In this document: positions 392-42,270 of the stretch, one piece after another
Layout: each line of letters opens with the position of its first letter
Position numbering within the stretch: position 1 is the stretch's first letter
NCBI RefSeq assembly: GCF_016026235.1
Contig: NZ_CP065613.1
Reading direction: 5' to 3' (one strand)
Source: Escherichia coli
GTDB taxonomy: Bacteria > Pseudomonadota > Gammaproteobacteria > Enterobacterales > Enterobacteriaceae
Length of the DNA stretch: 64,000 bases
Program-made: the position numbers and the translations under genes
Notes under the pieces: generated by a model
The model's database searches: none
What the model saw: the letters and a program-made list of their open reading frames with translations, nothing else
Told to the model about the DNA's origin: nothing

Positions 392-1729
392 TTAAACGGC
401 TTTTACTGCATCGGCGATGCGGTGTGCAAATTCAGTCACCTGCGCTTCGTCTTCGCCTTCCACCATCACGCGAATTAACGGTTCGGTGCCGGATTTACGC
501 AACAGCACACGTCCACGGCTACCCAGCGCCGCTTCAACTTCTGCGGTCACGGCTTTAACTGACTCATGCTCAAGCGGATCGCCGCTACCTGCGGTGTAAC
601 GCACGTTTACCAGGATTTGCGGGAACATTTTCATGCCGCTGCAAAGGTCGTGCAGGCTCATATGGTTACGCGCCATCGCCGCCAGCACCTGCAAACCAGC
701 AACGATGCCGTCACCGGTAGTGGTTTTATCCAGCAGGATCACATGACCGGAATTCTCTGCACCGATACGCCAGCCTTTCTCCTGCATTTTTTCCAGTACG
801 TAGCGGTCACCCACTTTCGCGCGCGCAAATGGAATACCTAACTGTTTCAGCGCCAGTTCAAGCCCCATGTTGCTCATCAATGTACCCACAGCGCCACCAC
901 GCAGCTGGCCCTGACGAAGACCTTCACGCGCGATGATATACATGATCTGATCGCCATCGACTTTATTGCCTTCATGGTCAACCATAATCACGCGATCGCC
1001 GTCGCCGTCGAAGGCAATACCGAGATCCGCTTTTTCAGCCAGCACACGAGCCTGGAGCGCGCGAACGTCGGTAGCCCCCACTTCGGCATTGATGTTTACA
1101 CCGTTTGGCTCACAACCGATAGCGATAACATTCGCTCCCAGTTCGCGCAGCACGTTCGGCGCGATGTGATAAGTCGCACCGTTTGCGCAATCCACCACAA
1201 TCTTCAGTTCACTGAGGCTAAGTTCGTTCGGGAACGTGGCTTTGCAAAACTCGATATAGCGACCCGCAGCATCAACGATACGGCTGGCTTTACCCAGTTC
1301 TGCCGAATCAACACAGCTGATCTCTTTTTCCATTTCCGCTTCGATGGCTTCTTCAACTGCATCCGGCAGCTTAGTACCGTCAATAGAAAAGAATTTAATG
1401 CCATTATCGTAGAACGGGTTATGCGATGCAGATATCACAATTCCGGCCTCTGCGCGGAAGGTACGCGTCAGATAAGCCACGGCCGGTGTTGGCATCGGGC
1501 CAGTGAAGAGTGCGGAAAGGCCCGCAGCCGCCAGCCCCGCTTCCAGTGCTGACTCCAGCATATAGCCAGAAATACGCGTGTCTTTACCAATAATAATCTT
1601 ACGGGAGCCGTGGCGCGCCAGCACTTTACCCGCGGCCCAACCCAGCTTAAGCACAAAATCAGGTGTGATCGGCGCATCCCCTACACGACCACGAATCCCA
1701 TCGGTACCGAAATATTTACGATTACTCAT
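392..1729 (-). CDS. glmM: Phosphoglucosamine mutase
   Basis: ORF track 445 aa, [17 protein letters not shown]... with SASHNP active-site motif; ATG at 1729..1727. Confidence 0.95.
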
Positions 1730-2570
1730 AGCGTTTGTTTTCCTTTGCAGACAGAGTGGCTTCCACCACCCGCATCGCTTCTACGGTTTCTTTGACGTCA
1801 TGAACACGAATGATGTGCGCGCCTTGCATTGCGGCAATGACCGCACAGGCCAGACTACCGCTCAGGCGCTCGGACGGCCCCACGTTCAGCAGCTGCCCAA
1901 TCATCGATTTTCGTGACATACCCACCAACAGCGGCAGGTTGAAATGGTGAAATTCAGCCAGGCGCGCCAGTAATGAATAGTTATGGGAGAGATTTTTACC
2001 GAAACCGAATCCGGGGTCGAGCAACAATTTCTCTTTTGCGATACCCGCCTGCTCGCAACGTGCTATTTGCTCAATAAAGTAGCGATTCACTTCTGCAAAG
2101 ACATCGTCATACTTCGGGGCTTCCTGCATGGTTTTTGGATTTCCCTGCATATGCATCAGACAAACCGGTAAACCGGTTTCTGCAGCCGCCTCCAGAGCGC
2201 CAGGTTCGGAAAGGGAGCGGATATCGTTAATAATGTGAGCGCCAACTTTCGCTGACTCACGGATGACTTCTGGTTTGGATGTATCGACCGAGATCCAGAC
2301 TTCGAAGCGTTGAGCAATTGCCTCAACCACAGGAATAACACGTTGCAACTCTTCTTCAACGCTAACTTCCGCCGCCCCTGGGCGCGTGGACTCGCCACCA
2401 ACGTCAATGATCGTCGCGCCAGCGTTGATCATCAGATTCGCATGTTTCACCGCATCTATCAGCGAGTTATGCGTGCCACCATCCGAAAAGGAATCAGGCG
2501 TGACGTTGAGGATCCCCATTACGTGAGGATGGCTAAGGTCCAGTGAAGTGCCCTGGGCAAAGAGTTTCAT
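1722..2570 (-). CDS. folP: Dihydropteroate synthase
   Basis: ORF track 1722..2636; trimmed to the ATG giving [28 protein letters not shown]..., 282 aa; overlaps glmM start by 8 nt. Confidence 0.93.
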
Positions 2571-38136: not shown

Positions 38137-39567
<1,431 letters not shown>

Positions 39568-39750
39568 GCTCTGTCCCAGCGCCGCCTCCTCAGAAAAGAG
39601 TCGGCGCTGAAATTCTCCTTTCGTTCTGGAAAGCGCCTCGCATAATCTGAAGAAAACCAATGTAATACGCACATCTGGATTGTTACCGGCAGATGCCCGG
39701 CGTATAGCTGATTCCATTATTCAACACTGCGCCATATAAAGGGAAAGATA

Positions 39751-40878
39751 ATGGAATCGCTTTCAGAGAGAACCTCAACAGGCTACCAGCAAATCCACGA
39801 CGGTATTATTCACCTGGTCGATAGCGCCCGGACGGAAACGGTACGTAGCGTTAACGCGCTGATGACCGCGACATACTGGGAAATTGGCCGACGAATTGTC
39901 GAATTTGAACAAGGTGGCGAGGCCAGGGCTGCGTATGGTGCGCAGCTAATCAAGCGACTATCAAAGGATTTAAGTCTAAGGTATAAGCGTGGGTTCTCTG
40001 CAAAAAACTTACGCCAAATGAGGCTTTTTTACCTCTTTTTTCAACATGTTGAAATTCGCCAGACAGTGTCTGGCGAATTAACACCATTGGGAATTCCGCA
40101 GACACCATCTGCAGAATTCCCATCGGCAAAGATTTGGCAGACGCTGTCTGCCAAATCTTTCCCCCTGCCCTGGTCCACCTACGTCCGTTTACTTTCCGTT
40201 AAAAACGCTGACGCCCGCAGCTTTTATGAAAAAGAGACGCTCCGCTGTGGCTGGTCTGTTCGCCAGCTAGAACGGCAAATTGCGACCCAATTTTATGAGC
40301 GAACACTGCTGTCACATGACAAATCAGCCATGCTGCAACAACACGCTCCTGCCGAGACGCATATTCTTCCGCAACAGGCGATACGCGATCCCTTTGTGCT
40401 CGAATTTCTGGAATTGAAAGATGAATACTCAGAATCCGATTTTGAGGAGGCGCTGATCAACCACCTGATGGATTTTATGCTGGAACTTGGGGATGATTTT
40501 GCCTTTGTTGGTCGGCAGCGAAGGTTACGCATTGATGACAACTGGTTTCGTGTCGATCTGCTGTTTTTCCACCGCCGTTTACGCTGCCTGCTAATCGTCG
40601 ATCTAAAAGTGGGCAAATTCAGCTATAGCGATGCCGGACAGATGAATATGTATCTCAACTACGCCAAAGAGCACTGGACGCTACCGGATGAAAATCCGCC
40701 CATCGGTCTGGTTCTCTGTGCAGAGAAAGGAGTCGGAGAAGCGCATTATGCACTGGCTGGTTTGCCTAACACCGTTCTGGCGAGTGAATATAAGATGCAA
40801 CTACCTGATGAAAAACGACTCGCGGATGAACTCGTTCGAACACAGTCGGTGCTAGAAGAAGGCTATAGACTCCGTTAA
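39751..40878 (+). CDS. yhcG: DUF1016 / PD-(D/E)XK nuclease-superfamily protein YhcG
   Basis: ORF track 375 aa, MESLSERTSTGYQQIHDGIIHLVDSARTETVRSVNALMTATYWEIGRRIVEFEQ... Confidence 0.85.
   Translation: MESLSERTSTGYQQIHDGIIHLVDSARTETVRSVNALMTATYWEIGRRIVEFEQGGEARAAYGAQLIKRLSKDLSLRYKRGFSAKNLRQMRLFYLFFQHVEIRQTVSGELTPLGIPQTPSAEFPSAKIWQTLSAKSFPLPWSTYVRLLSVKNADARSFYEKETLRCGWSVRQLERQIATQFYERTLLSHDKSAMLQQHAPAETHILPQQAIRDPFVLEFLELKDEYSESDFEEALINHLMDFMLELGDDFAFVGRQRRLRIDDNWFRVDLLFFHRRLRCLLIVDLKVGKFSYSDAGQMNMYLNYAKEHWTLPDENPPIGLVLCAEKGVGEAHYALAGLPNTVLASEYKMQLPDEKRLADELVRTQSVLEEGYRLR
40053..40160. repeat. Three consecutive hyphenated palindromes inside the yhcG coding sequence
   Basis: 40053..40079 aattcgccagaca-g-tgtctggcgaatt; 40091..40119 gaattccgcaga-cacca-tctgcagaattc (one mismatch); 40128..40160 aaagatttggcagac-gct-gtctgccaaatcttt; shared CAGACA/TGTCTG core. 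Confidence 0.8.
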
Positions 40879-40893
40879 TTTCAGCGGTTTCGA

Positions 40894-40918
40894 ATTCTGC
40901 AGACACTGTCTGCAGAAT
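40894..40918. repeat. Fourth palindrome of the same family, 16 bp after the yhcG stop
   Basis: attctgcagaca-c-tgtctgcagaat, a perfect 12+1+12 palindrome, near-identical to the copy at 40091..40119. Confidence 0.8.
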
Positions 40919-40937
40919 CTTTAAAACGAACTAAGTT

Positions 40938-42270
<1,333 letters not shown>

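What the first reader, a model, noticed from the sequence alone, without database searches (positions are those of the whole stretch)
40053..40918. Family of four related hyphenated palindromes within and just after yhcG
Three palindromes of 27, 29 and 33 bp lie back-to-back inside the yhcG coding region at 40053..40160, all built around CAGACA / TGTCTG. A fourth, near-identical to the second, lies 16 bp past the yhcG stop at 40894..40918. Perfect palindromes of this length are unusual inside coding sequence. In the protein they encode three in-phase peptide repeats (IRQTVSG, IPQTPSA, IWQTLSA), so they look like in-frame copies of a small palindromic unit, or binding sites for a dimeric protein, laid over the gene. 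Copies 2 and 4 contain GAATTC and CTGCAG, which I read as a by-product of the palindrome, not a cloning scar.
Basis: seen in the sequence. Interest (0 to 1): 0.45.

Follow-up and report, generated by a model that had tools for sequence, protein, structure and literature searches.

The report
Conserved hairpin palindrome inside YhcG genes
The four E. coli palindromes are local copies of a DNA palindrome that sits at one fixed spot inside YhcG/DUF1016 nuclease genes in more than 20 bacterial phyla; its two arms stay complementary while their sequence changes, so a DNA-level structure, not the protein, is being conserved, and I found no prior description of it.

Summary
Three in-frame 39-bp units in yhcG each carry a hyphenated palindrome, and a fourth copy lies just past the stop codon.

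The feature is not specific to E. coli. In 67 DUF1016 genes picked only by nuclease-domain motifs, 66% have a perfect palindrome with arms of at least 8 bp just upstream of the conserved Trp. The figure is 2.9% for other windows of the same genes and 1.6% after synonymous recoding.

The symmetry centre is fixed and the arm sequences differ, with strong compensatory covariation. Stem mismatches show no G·T excess, which points to DNA pairing rather than a sense-RNA fold. The encoded peptide lies in a predicted disordered linker.

A scan for one version of the motif hit at least 120 loci across more than 20 phyla, 91 of them inside YhcG homologues.

Escherichia alone tripled the unit and copied it to two intergenic sites. 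Structural variants of the locus (island deletion, gene truncation, 78-bp indel) join at these palindromes.

Function is unproven. My best guess is a DNA hairpin or cruciform acting in cis with the NucS-like nuclease the gene encodes. The rivals are an mRNA hairpin and a self-correcting, functionless palindrome. No Rfam family or paper describes it.

The parts
39751..40878 (+). yhcG CDS, 375 aa: DUF1016_N domain plus YhcG_C PD-(D/E)XK nuclease domain
   Evidence: ORF. Pfam PF17761 at 9e-43 and PF06250 at 1.5e-56. PADLOC candidate defence family PDC-S02. The C-terminal domain resembles NucS/EndoMS by Foldseek.
40039..40156 (+). Tandem array of three in-frame 39-bp (13-codon) units. Together with the codons up to Pro140 (nt 40170) they encode residues 97-140, a predicted disordered linker.
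   Evidence: Direct-repeat family D1 with 39-bp spacing. AlphaFold block-mean pLDDT of 50/36/33 for residues 101-130, no secondary structure over residues 97-140. Unit number varies among strains and genera, giving proteins of 349 to 391 aa.
40053..40079 (.). Palindrome 1: AATTCGCCAGACA-G-TGTCTGGCGAATT (13+1+13, perfect)
   Evidence: Inverted repeat I11. DNA hairpin -13.1 kcal/mol, z = -8.1. The same 27-mer is the solo palindrome in strains that lack yhcG.
40089..40121 (.). Palindrome 2: GGGAATTCCGCAGA-CACCA-TCTGCAGAATTCCC (14-nt arms, one mismatch)
   Evidence: Sequence. DNA hairpin -12.5 kcal/mol, z = -7.0.
40128..40160 (.). Palindrome 3: AAAGATTTGGCAGAC-GCT-GTCTGCCAAATCTTT (15+3+15). This is the unit at the family's ancestral position, next to PLPWSTY. 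Its outer edge is the breakpoint of the truncated allele found in 726 genomes.
   Evidence: Inverted repeat I7. Hairpin -15.7 kcal/mol. Breakpoint read in L211.
40879..40918 (.). Extragenic unit 4, in the yhcG frame after the stop (FQRFRILQTLSAE). It holds palindrome 4, ATTCTGCAGACA-C-TGTCTGCAGAAT, at 40894-40918. It lies between the convergent yhcG and nanQ genes.
   Evidence: 73% identical to unit 1 over 40 nt (D1). Inverted repeat I15. A natural read-through variant, P0020, translates it. A compensatory G>C / C>G pair is seen in L002. It does not match the intrinsic-terminator consensus.

Best explanation
WHAT IT IS (shown; about 0.9).

The palindromes are copies of an element carried by the YhcG/DUF1016 gene family as a whole. 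It is a 12-bp-stem, roughly 3-nt-centre DNA palindrome with the consensus AATT-N4-A-NN-CA-N-TG-NN-T-N4-AATT. It lies in the codons of the disordered linker just upstream of the conserved L-x-W-S-H motif.

Position and symmetry are conserved across phyla. The arm sequence, and therefore the peptide, drifts through compensatory changes.

In the Escherichia lineage the 39-bp unit was tandemly triplicated. It was also copied to two nearby intergenic spots: after yhcG, which is copy 4 here, and after gltD in K-12-type strains.

HOW IT WORKS (inferred; about 0.4).

The element acts as DNA, as a hairpin on single strands or a cruciform in supercoiled duplex. It is kept because it works in cis with the gene's own product.

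That product has a NucS/Holliday-junction-resolvase-like nuclease domain, and relatives of that domain act on branched or distorted DNA. The most likely role is structure-specific binding that sets the gene's own expression or activity. Cleavage is also possible.

A side effect is shown rather than inferred. The palindromes are fragile joints where the E. coli locus repeatedly rearranges: unit gain and loss, loss of the island plus yhcG, and replacement of the nuclease half.
For: Family-wide and at the nucleotide level:
- 80 loci were retrieved using peptide patterns from the nuclease domain only. In most of the 79 ORFs recovered from them, the longest palindrome of the whole ORF lies in the stretch just upstream of L-x-W-x-H, with many different sequences.
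- Perfect arms of at least 8 bp occur in 66% of the 67 non-redundant genes. The figure is 2.9% in 698 control windows and 1.6% after synonymous-codon resampling.
- With a fixed centre at -18 nt from the Trp codon and no optimisation, 34 of 67 genes have at least 9 of 12 pairs. Only 21 of 21,470 control positions do.
- Covariation: 90% of cells are paired against 61% in shuffles. There are 176 double-sided changes against 58±7. Slid controls give 25-40%.
- Within I-x-Q-T-x-S motifs, Ser is TCT in 100% of cases (19% elsewhere in the same genes), Thr is ACA in 100% (32%), and Ile is ATT in 92% (43%).

Hairpin geometry:
- Pairs at distances d2 to d13 from the centre are 73-100% complementary.
- d1 is only 60% complementary, and d14 falls to 42%.

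DNA rather than sense RNA:
- Stem mismatches at d2-d12 are 8 G·T, 13 A·C and 30 other, out of 605.
- At the free positions of 101 further sites the counts are 5 G·T and 7 A·C.

Not a protein requirement:
- The linker is predicted disordered.
- Unit number varies from 1 to 5 or more.
- Subfamilies with unrelated peptides (IVQRGVAQ, KLSPLVRE) still encode palindromes.

Breadth:
- At least 120 loci in more than 20 phyla match an 18-base version of the motif. My own estimate of the chance expectation is a few sites.
- 91 of them lie inside YhcG homologues.
- The family has 24,551 clusters at 50% identity.

Link to the nuclease:
- Foldseek best hits are NucS/EndoMS structures 2vld and 5gke.
- Kinch et al. 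2005 found the domain closest to archaeal Holliday-junction resolvases and YraN.
- An array of 37 units lies directly upstream of a DUF1016 gene in L084.

Fragility:
- E. coli structural alleles join at the palindromes.
- N-terminal gene fragments end at the palindrome in L120 and L034.
Against: - No experiment or expression data bear on function. Nothing shows that YhcG binds or cuts the structure.
- Cruciform extrusion of a 27-bp palindrome in vivo is usually inefficient (my own knowledge, not tested here).
- The conserved outer AATT and central CA-N-TG could partly reflect conserved Ile, Leu/Val and Leu codons rather than recognition.
- 12 of 67 genes lack a good palindrome.
- Salmonella and Citrobacter koseri share the same imperfect copy, with a G·G mismatch. 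Perfection is therefore not obligatory.
- Extragenic copies next to the gene are rare outside Escherichia, 2 of 67.
- The lack of G·T excess could also come from an arm-to-arm copying process, whatever the function.
Confidence: 0.5

Rival explanations
1. mRNA hairpin. The stem-loop acts in the transcript. It could slow ribosomes at the domain boundary, be a processing site such as for RNase III, stabilise or attenuate the message, or bind YhcG as RNA, thereby tuning production of a potentially toxic nuclease.
For: The region folds into three strong RNA hairpins: -66 kcal/mol, z = -9.3. The geometry of a 12-bp stem and 3-nt loop closed by C-G fits a hairpin. The element always lies on the coding strand of an expressed gene. 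A repeat array directly upstream of a nuclease gene (L084) recalls type III toxin-antitoxin RNA repeats; that comparison is from my own knowledge.
Against: G·U-type pairs are not enriched over A·C: 8 against 13 and 5 against 7. No U-tract follows, and the terminator scan finds none of the four. No Rfam family matches. Intergenic copies and solo copies in strains without the gene keep perfect symmetry.
Confidence: 0.2
2. Functionless, self-perpetuating palindrome. Once a quasi-palindrome exists in a tolerant linker, intrastrand template switching during replication copies one arm onto the other. This is the quasipalindrome correction known in E. coli. The arms then evolve in concert with no selection for any function.
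For: Pairing is Watson-Crick only, with no strand bias. The linker is disordered and tolerates almost any peptide and any unit number. Tandem unit expansion and local copying in Escherichia and in L084 look mutational.
Against: A 12-bp-arm palindrome is kept at one codon-exact position in about 80% of a sample in which many members are only 28-43% identical to the E. coli protein. Palindromes of this size are nearly absent from the rest of the same genes, 0.14-0.7% of windows. The stem ends and the loop-closing C-G are fixed. An uncorrected mismatch is shared by Salmonella and Citrobacter, so correction is not fast. Palindromes are deletion-prone, as the E. coli alleles show, so persistence without benefit is unexpected.
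Confidence: 0.2
3. In-frame selfish palindromic element (MITE-like or Rickettsia-RPE-like) that inserted into yhcG and nearby.
For: The units are in frame, vary in copy number, and have copies outside the gene. Canonical copies occur in non-coding DNA of unrelated genomes with no DUF1016 similarity within 1.2 kb, at 19 of the 29 extragenic sites tested.
Against: There is no dispersal in E. coli: the motif occurs only at the gltD-nanQ locus in 5,426 genomes. One unit occupies the same position in homologues from many phyla, so it is ancestral to the family and not an insertion. I saw no terminal repeats or target duplications.
Confidence: 0.05
4. Operator sites for a dimeric transcription factor laid over the gene.
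For: The sites have two-fold symmetry, with conserved blocks at the centre and the outer ends. In three Clostridia contigs a copy sits just after a promoter-like sequence.
Against: The sites lie about 300 nt inside the ORF. Three different arm sequences occur in one gene, and alleles whose N-terminal residues are identical carry different arms. Positions that vary freely still co-vary, which a shared half-site preference does not explain.
Confidence: 0.04
5. Ordinary conserved coding sequence or chance symmetry.
For: The I-x-Q-T-x-S-x-E peptide recurs in many homologues.
Against: Synonymous resampling of the same peptides gives arms of at least 8 bp in 1.6% of cases against 66% observed. Codon choice inside the motif is near-absolute. 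Subfamilies with different peptides still carry palindromes.
Confidence: 0.01

Closest known systems
REP elements with their RAYT transposase (REPtrons)
   Same: A short palindrome forms a DNA hairpin and is tied to one nuclease-type gene. In E. coli, copies flank the gene. The arms co-vary.
   Different: REPs are extragenic and dispersed in hundreds of copies, and RAYT is an HUH/Y1 enzyme. Here the palindrome is inside the ORF at a fixed codon position, usually in a single copy, and the enzyme is a PD-(D/E)XK nuclease. There is no genome-wide spread.
Integron attC sites
   Same: Structure is conserved rather than sequence. The element is recognised as a folded single DNA strand. Watson-Crick covariation is present. 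The sites mark cassette boundaries, and the E. coli variants join at the palindromes.
   Different: attC sites have R/L core boxes (GTTRRRY) and extrahelical bases, lie at cassette ends, and need IntI. I saw none of these by reading the sequence. No integrase is nearby.
Cis sites embedded in the gene of the protein that acts on them, such as the pac sites inside the phage P22, SPP1 and P1 small-terminase genes (my own knowledge)
   Same: A DNA site sits inside the coding sequence of a DNA-processing enzyme, so site and enzyme travel together.
   Different: pac sites are sequence-specific and are not covarying palindromes. No packaging context is present here. Action of YhcG on its own palindrome is unproven.
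Rickettsia palindromic elements (RPE), selfish palindromes inserted in frame (Ogata 2000, as cited in PMC4316617)
   Same: Palindromic DNA is translated in frame as a tolerated peptide.
   Different: RPEs are 100-150 nt, dispersed in many unrelated genes, and appear as insertions relative to orthologues. This element is 27 bp and is resident in one gene family at one position.
Coding-region VNTR used for typing (the yhcG locus of the LSPA-6 scheme for E. coli O157:H7)
   Same: It is the same locus. Length alleles of yhcG are already used as a lineage marker. The 78-bp (two-unit) indel is seen in L001.
   Different: The passages of the typing papers I searched mention only amplicon length alleles. 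They say nothing of the palindromes or their family-wide conservation.
Quasipalindrome template-switch hotspots in E. coli (my own knowledge)
   Same: Arm-to-arm correction gives perfect Watson-Crick palindromes with no strand bias.
   Different: Those are mutational hotspots in arbitrary genes. They are not elements conserved at one position across a gene family in many phyla.

Membership tests
YhcG / DUF1016 protein family (host gene) | DUF1016_N and YhcG_C PD-(D/E)XK domains score above Pfam cut-offs | tested here: met
   146 bits (cut-off 32.8) and 191 bits (cut-off 32.5).
Coding-region tandem repeat (VNTR) | Head-to-tail in-frame units with copy-number differences between strains | tested here: met
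   Three 39-bp units. One unit in L001 and two in L002. Protein lengths range from 349 to 391 aa through unit number.
REP/BIME or other dispersed E. coli repeat | Many copies scattered over the genome, mostly intergenic | tested here: not met
   A 37-nt query with E up to 10 against 5,426 genomes gave a median of 2 and a maximum of 5 places per genome. All 30 rows displayed lie in yhcG or in unannotated DNA at this locus.
Intrinsic (Rho-independent) terminator | G+C-rich stem-loop followed by a U-tract, downstream of a gene | tested here: not met
   The consensus scan reports none of the four. The tails are AATTAAC, AATTCCC and AATCTTT. Position is met only for copy 4 and for the K-12 copy after gltD. 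That K-12 copy lies between gltD and gltF, which are reported to be co-transcribed as the gltBDF operon (my own knowledge).
In-frame selfish palindromic element (RPE/MITE-like) | Present or absent as an insertion relative to orthologues, and dispersed | tested here: not met
   One unit lies at the same alignment position in homologues from many phyla. No dispersal.
Integron attC | R''/L''-L'/R' boxes with a GTTRRRY core, extrahelical bases, a neighbouring intI and cassette array | tested here: not met
   No GTTRRRY core in any copy (sequence). The neighbours are gltD and nanQ.
Any curated RNA family (Rfam 15) | Covariance-model match at or near the gathering score | tested here: not met
   Only sub-threshold microRNA-type noise (E 0.4-10) in the window. 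Nothing at the palindromes in 12 loci.
Conserved nucleic-acid stem-loop (structure under constraint) | Compensatory double changes that keep pairing across homologues, above controls | tested here: met
   11 of 12 pairs show double-sided changes. 176 cells against 58±7. 90% paired against 25-40% when slid. A fixed-centre test without optimisation agrees.
RNA-level structure (sense strand) | G·U pairs tolerated much more than A·C | tested here: not met
   G·T 8 against A·C 13. G·T 5 against A·C 7.
Operator of a dimeric DNA-binding protein | A conserved half-site sequence shared by the sites of one regulator | tested here: not met
   Three different arm sequences occur within one gene. Near-identical alleles carry different arms.
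Substrate or binding site of the YhcG nuclease itself | Specific binding or cleavage of the hairpin or cruciform by the protein | not testable with these tools
   Only indirect evidence: the NucS/HJ-resolvase-like fold, strict linkage of the element to the gene family, and an adjacent array in L084.

The most novel reading that the evidence does not exclude
YhcG/DUF1016 nucleases and the palindrome inside their own gene form a self-contained enzyme-plus-DNA-structure module. The protein recognises the hairpin or cruciform extruded from its own coding sequence, and from copies of it. It uses that structure as a sensor, an autoregulatory switch or a cleavage site. This activity would drive the cassette-like rearrangements seen at the E. 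coli locus. It would be a new class of palindrome-associated element in one of the most widespread candidate defence gene families.
Probability: 0.25. Interest if true: 0.92.

Novelty: categorically new. Interest (0 to 1): 0.8.

Why it matters
YhcG/DUF1016 is a very large family: 24,551 clusters at 50% identity. It is found in defence islands, restriction-modification loci, phages and conjugative elements. No function is known for it.

A DNA structure conserved inside the gene across phyla would be the first concrete handle on what these nucleases recognise or how they are controlled. It can be tested directly by synonymous recoding and by hairpin or cruciform binding assays.

It would also be a rare case in which a peptide segment of a cellular protein is dictated by a nucleic-acid structure rather than the other way round.

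Practically, it explains three things. It shows why yhcG is a length-polymorphic typing locus in O157:H7. It shows why the gltD-nanQ interval has several recurrent structural alleles. It may also explain why DUF1016 genes so often appear as N-terminal-only or C-terminal-only fragments in databases, since many PADLOC fragment models end near residues 101-115.

Tried and rejected
- Genome-wide repeat family in E. coli: rejected. The motif occurs only at this locus.
- Rfam match: none.
- Intrinsic terminator: no consensus match.
- Solved-structure homologue by sequence: none. NCBIfam: none.
- Literature searches found no description of the palindrome. Terms tried: yhcG, DUF1016, PDC-S02, COG4804/PF06250/PF17761 and the core sequence itself. 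I also searched the relevant passages of PMC1189080, PMC9881135, PMC4316617, PMC7967276 and PMC11341870. yhcG appears only as a length marker in LSPA-6 typing.
- General flanking of DUF1016 genes by copies of their palindrome: rejected. It holds for only 2 of 67 loci. Salmonella and C. koseri have none.
- The 468-bp segment that replaces the nuclease half in 726 genomes is not a multicopy mobile element. It is single-copy, and its 101-aa ORF, annotated 'transposase', has no Pfam hit.
- The canonical copies next to serine-recombinase genes in Clostridia and the L120 fragments were examined but not resolved.
- The first iterated HMM may have been contaminated by the repeat motif. I therefore recounted with single-sequence phmmer.
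- I recall that the classical LSPA-6 alleles differ by 78 bp (394 against 472 bp). The papers I read confirmed only the 394 and 392 bp alleles.
Full report
**1. The observation**

The window is E. coli, 100% identical to strain FDAARGOS_943 over the region. The gene order is gltD (38149-39567, +), yhcG (39751-40878, +) and nanQ/yhcH (40938-41402, -). YhcG carries Pfam DUF1016_N and the YhcG_C PD-(D/E)XK nuclease domain.

- AATTCGCCAGACA-G-TGTCTGGCGAATT at 40053-40079.
- GGGAATTCCGCAGA-CACCA-TCTGCAGAATTCCC at 40089-40121, with one arm mismatch.
- AAAGATTTGGCAGAC-GCT-GTCTGCCAAATCTTT at 40128-40160.
- ATTCTGCAGACA-C-TGTCTGCAGAAT at 40894-40918, 16 nt past the stop.

The first three lie in three tandem 39-bp, 13-codon units at 40039-40156. 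The fourth unit is 73% identical to unit 1 over 40 nt (family D1). It is in the yhcG reading frame, where it would read FQRFRILQTLSAE. A natural variant, P0020, reads through into it.

The core CAGAC-N1-5-GTCTG occurs 4 times in the window against 0.17 expected. Each copy folds far better than shuffles: DNA z = -6.9 to -8.1 and RNA z = -9.3 for the trio.

Units 1 and 3 differ at two arm positions. At both, the partner base has changed to match (C..G to T..A, and C..G to G..C; read).

**2. Variation inside E. coli**

Among 5,426 complete genomes the motif occurs only at this locus, so it is not a dispersed repeat. The locus itself is strongly polymorphic, and the joints lie at the palindromes.

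- (a) Unit number changes. L001 has one unit through a 78-bp deletion and encodes 349 aa. A 92%-identical allele, L002, has two units. Its first palindrome is AATTGTGCAGACA-C-TGTCTGCACAATT, again perfect but with different arms. Its copy 4 carries a compensatory G>C / C>G pair. Homologue lengths of 349 to 391 aa differ almost only by the number of I-x-Q-T-x-S units.
- (b) K-12-type strains have a fifth copy, GAATTCGCCAGACTGTGTCTGGCGAATC, 13 nt after the gltD stop. It lies at the left edge of the gltF-yhcA-F fimbrial island that separates gltD from yhcG. 1,236 genomes have this junction.
- (c) 947 genomes have neither the island nor yhcG. Their 67-bp gltD-nanQ spacer holds one palindrome. Its left flank matches the post-gltD copy and its right flank matches copy 4. 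Its 27 bases equal palindrome 1 of the window.
- (d) In 726 genomes yhcG is cut exactly at the outer edge of palindrome 3 (...GTCTGCCAAAT|TGAGAGG...). The nuclease half and copy 4 are replaced by a single-copy 468-bp segment.
- (e) One strain has IS1 between the post-gltD copy and palindrome 3.

yhcG is already used as a length marker in the LSPA-6 typing scheme for O157:H7. In the passages I searched, those papers do not mention palindromes.

**3. Other genera**

In Salmonella and Citrobacter koseri, yhcG follows gltBD directly, as in this window. It has a single unit, ATTCAGCAGACACTGTCTGGTGAAT. There are no extragenic copies, and ordinary G+C hairpins stand where E. coli has its intergenic palindromes. 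The gltD-yhcG arrangement is therefore probably ancestral. The triplication and the extragenic copies were found only in Escherichia among the genera examined.

**4. The element belongs to the whole gene family**

I scanned one genome per species for ATTCNNCAGACNNNGTCTGNNGAAT. The pattern has 18 fixed bases, and my estimate of chance is a few sites in 298 Gb.

- The loci come from more than 20 phyla, including Proteobacteria, Firmicutes, Bacteroidota, Planctomycetota, Verrucomicrobiota, Acidobacteriota, Actinomycetota, Cyanobacteria, Chloroflexota, Deinococcota, Spirochaetota and CPR groups.
- In 91 loci the site is inside an ORF that matches E. coli YhcG at E ≤ 1e-10.
- It always falls in the linker before L-S-W-S-H-Y.
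- At the four unconstrained NN positions the arms are complementary in 95 and 86 of 101 sites.

That search selects for the motif, so I also built an unbiased set. The search for related loci on viral contigs used peptide patterns from the nuclease domain only.

- In most of the 79 ORFs recovered, the longest palindrome of the entire ORF sits in the stretch just upstream of L-x-W-x-H.
- The sequences differ widely. Examples are AATTGCGAACG-CGC-TGCGTTCGCAATT (PIANALRSQF), CAGATTGTGAACGCATGCGTTCACAATCTG (QIVNACVHNL), CAATTTGCTACACA-C-TGTGTAGCAAATTG (AICYTLCSKL) and CTCTCACCA-C-TGGTGAGAG (KLSPLVRE).
- Perfect arms of at least 8 bp occur in 66% of the 67 non-redundant genes. The figure is 2.9% in 698 other windows of the same genes and 1.6% after synonymous-codon resampling of the same peptides.
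- With the centre fixed at -18 nt from the aligned Trp codon and no optimisation, 34 of 67 genes have at least 9 of 12 complementary pairs. Only 21 of 21,470 in-phase control positions do.
- On an ungapped alignment of 52 sites, 90% of cells pair against 61% in shuffles. There are 176 double-sided changes against 58±7. Sliding the partner gives 25-40%.
- Codon choice inside I-x-Q-T-x-S is nearly absolute: Ser TCT 100% against 19% elsewhere, Thr ACA 100% against 32%.

**5. Anatomy**

- The centre is one base, usually C or G, at codon position 1 of a Leu or Val codon.
- The pair next to it (d1) is only 60% complementary.
- d2 is an almost invariant C-G.
- d3 to d13 are 73-100% complementary, and d14 drops to 42%.
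- This describes a 12-bp stem with a 3-nt loop. The consensus is AATT-N4-A-NN-CA-N-TG-NN-T-N4-AATT.
- Stem mismatches show no preference for G·T over A·C: 8 against 13 and 5 against 7. A structure selected only in the sense RNA should tolerate G·U, so the constraint, or the process that maintains it, works on DNA complementarity.

**6. The protein side**

- AlphaFold, run with a 28-sequence alignment, places residues 97-140 in a coil between two helices. All three E. coli units fall there. Block-mean pLDDT is 50, 36 and 33 for residues 101-130.
- Homologues carry from one to five or more units.
- One Rhodothermales contig has a 1,012-aa ORF made of 37 repeats of 26 aa (two 39-bp half-units each), immediately upstream of a DUF1016 gene.
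- The peptide therefore looks like a tolerated by-product of the DNA.
- The nuclease domain is most like NucS/EndoMS (2vld, 5gke), then Can2/Card1 and Bax1.
- Kinch et al. 2005 placed it near archaeal Holliday-junction resolvases and YraN.
- PADLOC lists the family as candidate defence gene PDC-S02. Many of its fragment models end at residues 101-115, which is at the palindrome.
- The family has 24,551 clusters at 50% identity.

**7. Interpretation**

Shown:
- A position-fixed, sequence-variable DNA palindrome is a feature of most YhcG/DUF1016 genes sampled.
- The E. coli finding is a lineage-specific amplification of it.
- The palindromes are rearrangement joints.

Two observations argue against a sequence-specific dimeric binder. 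Three different arm sequences coexist in one gene, and alleles identical over the aligned N-terminal ~80 residues carry different arms. What matters is intramolecular complementarity.

Inferred, at about 0.4: the element works as a DNA hairpin or cruciform in cis with the encoded structure-specific nuclease. Structure-specific binding that controls the gene or the enzyme seems most likely.

Rivals:
- An mRNA hairpin (0.2). It is weakened by the pair-type spectrum, by the absence of U-tracts, and by perfect solo copies in strains without the gene.
- A self-correcting palindrome without function (0.2). It fits the Watson-Crick-only pattern. It fits poorly with conservation at one codon-exact position in about 80% of a deeply diverged sample, and with the uncorrected mismatch shared by Salmonella and Citrobacter.
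- A MITE/RPE-like insertion, an operator, and plain coding conservation are each tested and not supported.

**8. Known versus new**

No Rfam family matches. No solved-structure relative turns up by sequence. The searchable literature holds nothing on this palindrome.

The nearest analogies are REP-RAYT, attC-IntI, pac sites inside terminase genes, and Rickettsia RPEs. Each fails at least one defining feature tested here. The length polymorphism of yhcG is known. The palindrome, its covariation and its distribution across the family appear to be undescribed.

**9. Limits**

- The unbiased set is modest (67 genes) and comes from viral contigs.
- Canonical copies outside DUF1016 genes lack any DUF1016 similarity within 1.2 kb at 19 of the 29 extragenic sites tested, spread over about 26 loci. 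Some of these lie next to serine-recombinase genes. They are not explained.
- The origin of the two Escherichia intergenic copies is unresolved.
- No functional data exist.

Noticed in passing
L211:1958-2425 (E. coli strain 64); corresponds to window 40157-40935 being replaced: In 726 of 5,426 E. coli genomes the nuclease half of yhcG and copy 4 are replaced by a single-copy 468-bp segment. The segment carries a 101-aa ORF annotated 'transposase' that has no Pfam hit. The left joint is exactly at the outer edge of palindrome 3.
   Followed up: partly
L084:2430-5468 (-), Rhodothermales MAG: A 1,012-aa ORF is made of 37 repeats of 26 aa (SILQTVSVESGSGVNSRLVSMNRGRY, two 39-bp half-units each). 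It lies immediately upstream of a DUF1016 gene at 1198-2361 (-). It is unclear whether this is a real protein or an expanded palindrome array that happens to stay open.
   Followed up: partly
L123:6083-6423, L124:4425-4765 (-), L096:9080-9420 (Clostridia MAGs): The canonical palindrome (ATTC[GA]TCAGACANTGTCTGA[TC]GAAT) follows a sigma-70-like promoter and a conserved element of about 100 nt. In L123 and L124 it lies about 0.5 kb from a large serine-recombinase gene. The DNA beyond the palindrome differs between copies, as at the edge of an integrative element. No DUF1016 similarity is nearby.
   Followed up: partly
L120:1-1500 (Cytophagales MAG); L034:9284-9406: DUF1016 N-terminal fragments stop at the palindrome. 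In L120 the 86-bp palindrome-bearing segment recurs three times at about 680-bp spacing, and a fragment matching residues 13-97 abuts the middle copy. In L034, residues 1-32 are fused directly to a palindrome. These look like further rearrangement joints at the element.
   Followed up: partly
L007:2515-2542 (K-12 derivative), 13 nt after the gltD stop: A fifth family member, GAATTCGCCAGACTGTGTCTGGCGAATC, lies between gltD and gltF at the left edge of the gltF-yhcA-F island. The window strain lacks both the island and this copy. In its place it has a different hairpin, CAGCGCCG...CGGCGCTG, at about 39578-39611.
   Followed up: yes
window 39568-39750 (yhcG upstream region): A published study reports a divergent or antisense small RNA, G0-10703, overlapping the yhcG 5' UTR by 128 bp and induced in stationary phase (PMC7967276). 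It is unrelated to the palindromes, but it bears on whether yhcG is expressed.
   Followed up: no
L006:1-2500 (E. coli strain 167): yhcG is truncated at its 5' end, at window position ~39985, which is not at a palindrome. The truncation lies next to an IS629 remnant and a group II intron reverse-transcriptase gene. This is another independent disruption of the locus.
   Followed up: no
Searches (PADLOC models; representative hits): Many database entries for this family are N-terminal-only proteins ending near residues 101-115, or C-terminal-only proteins starting near residues 130-145. This suggests that genes or assemblies often break at the palindrome.
   Followed up: no
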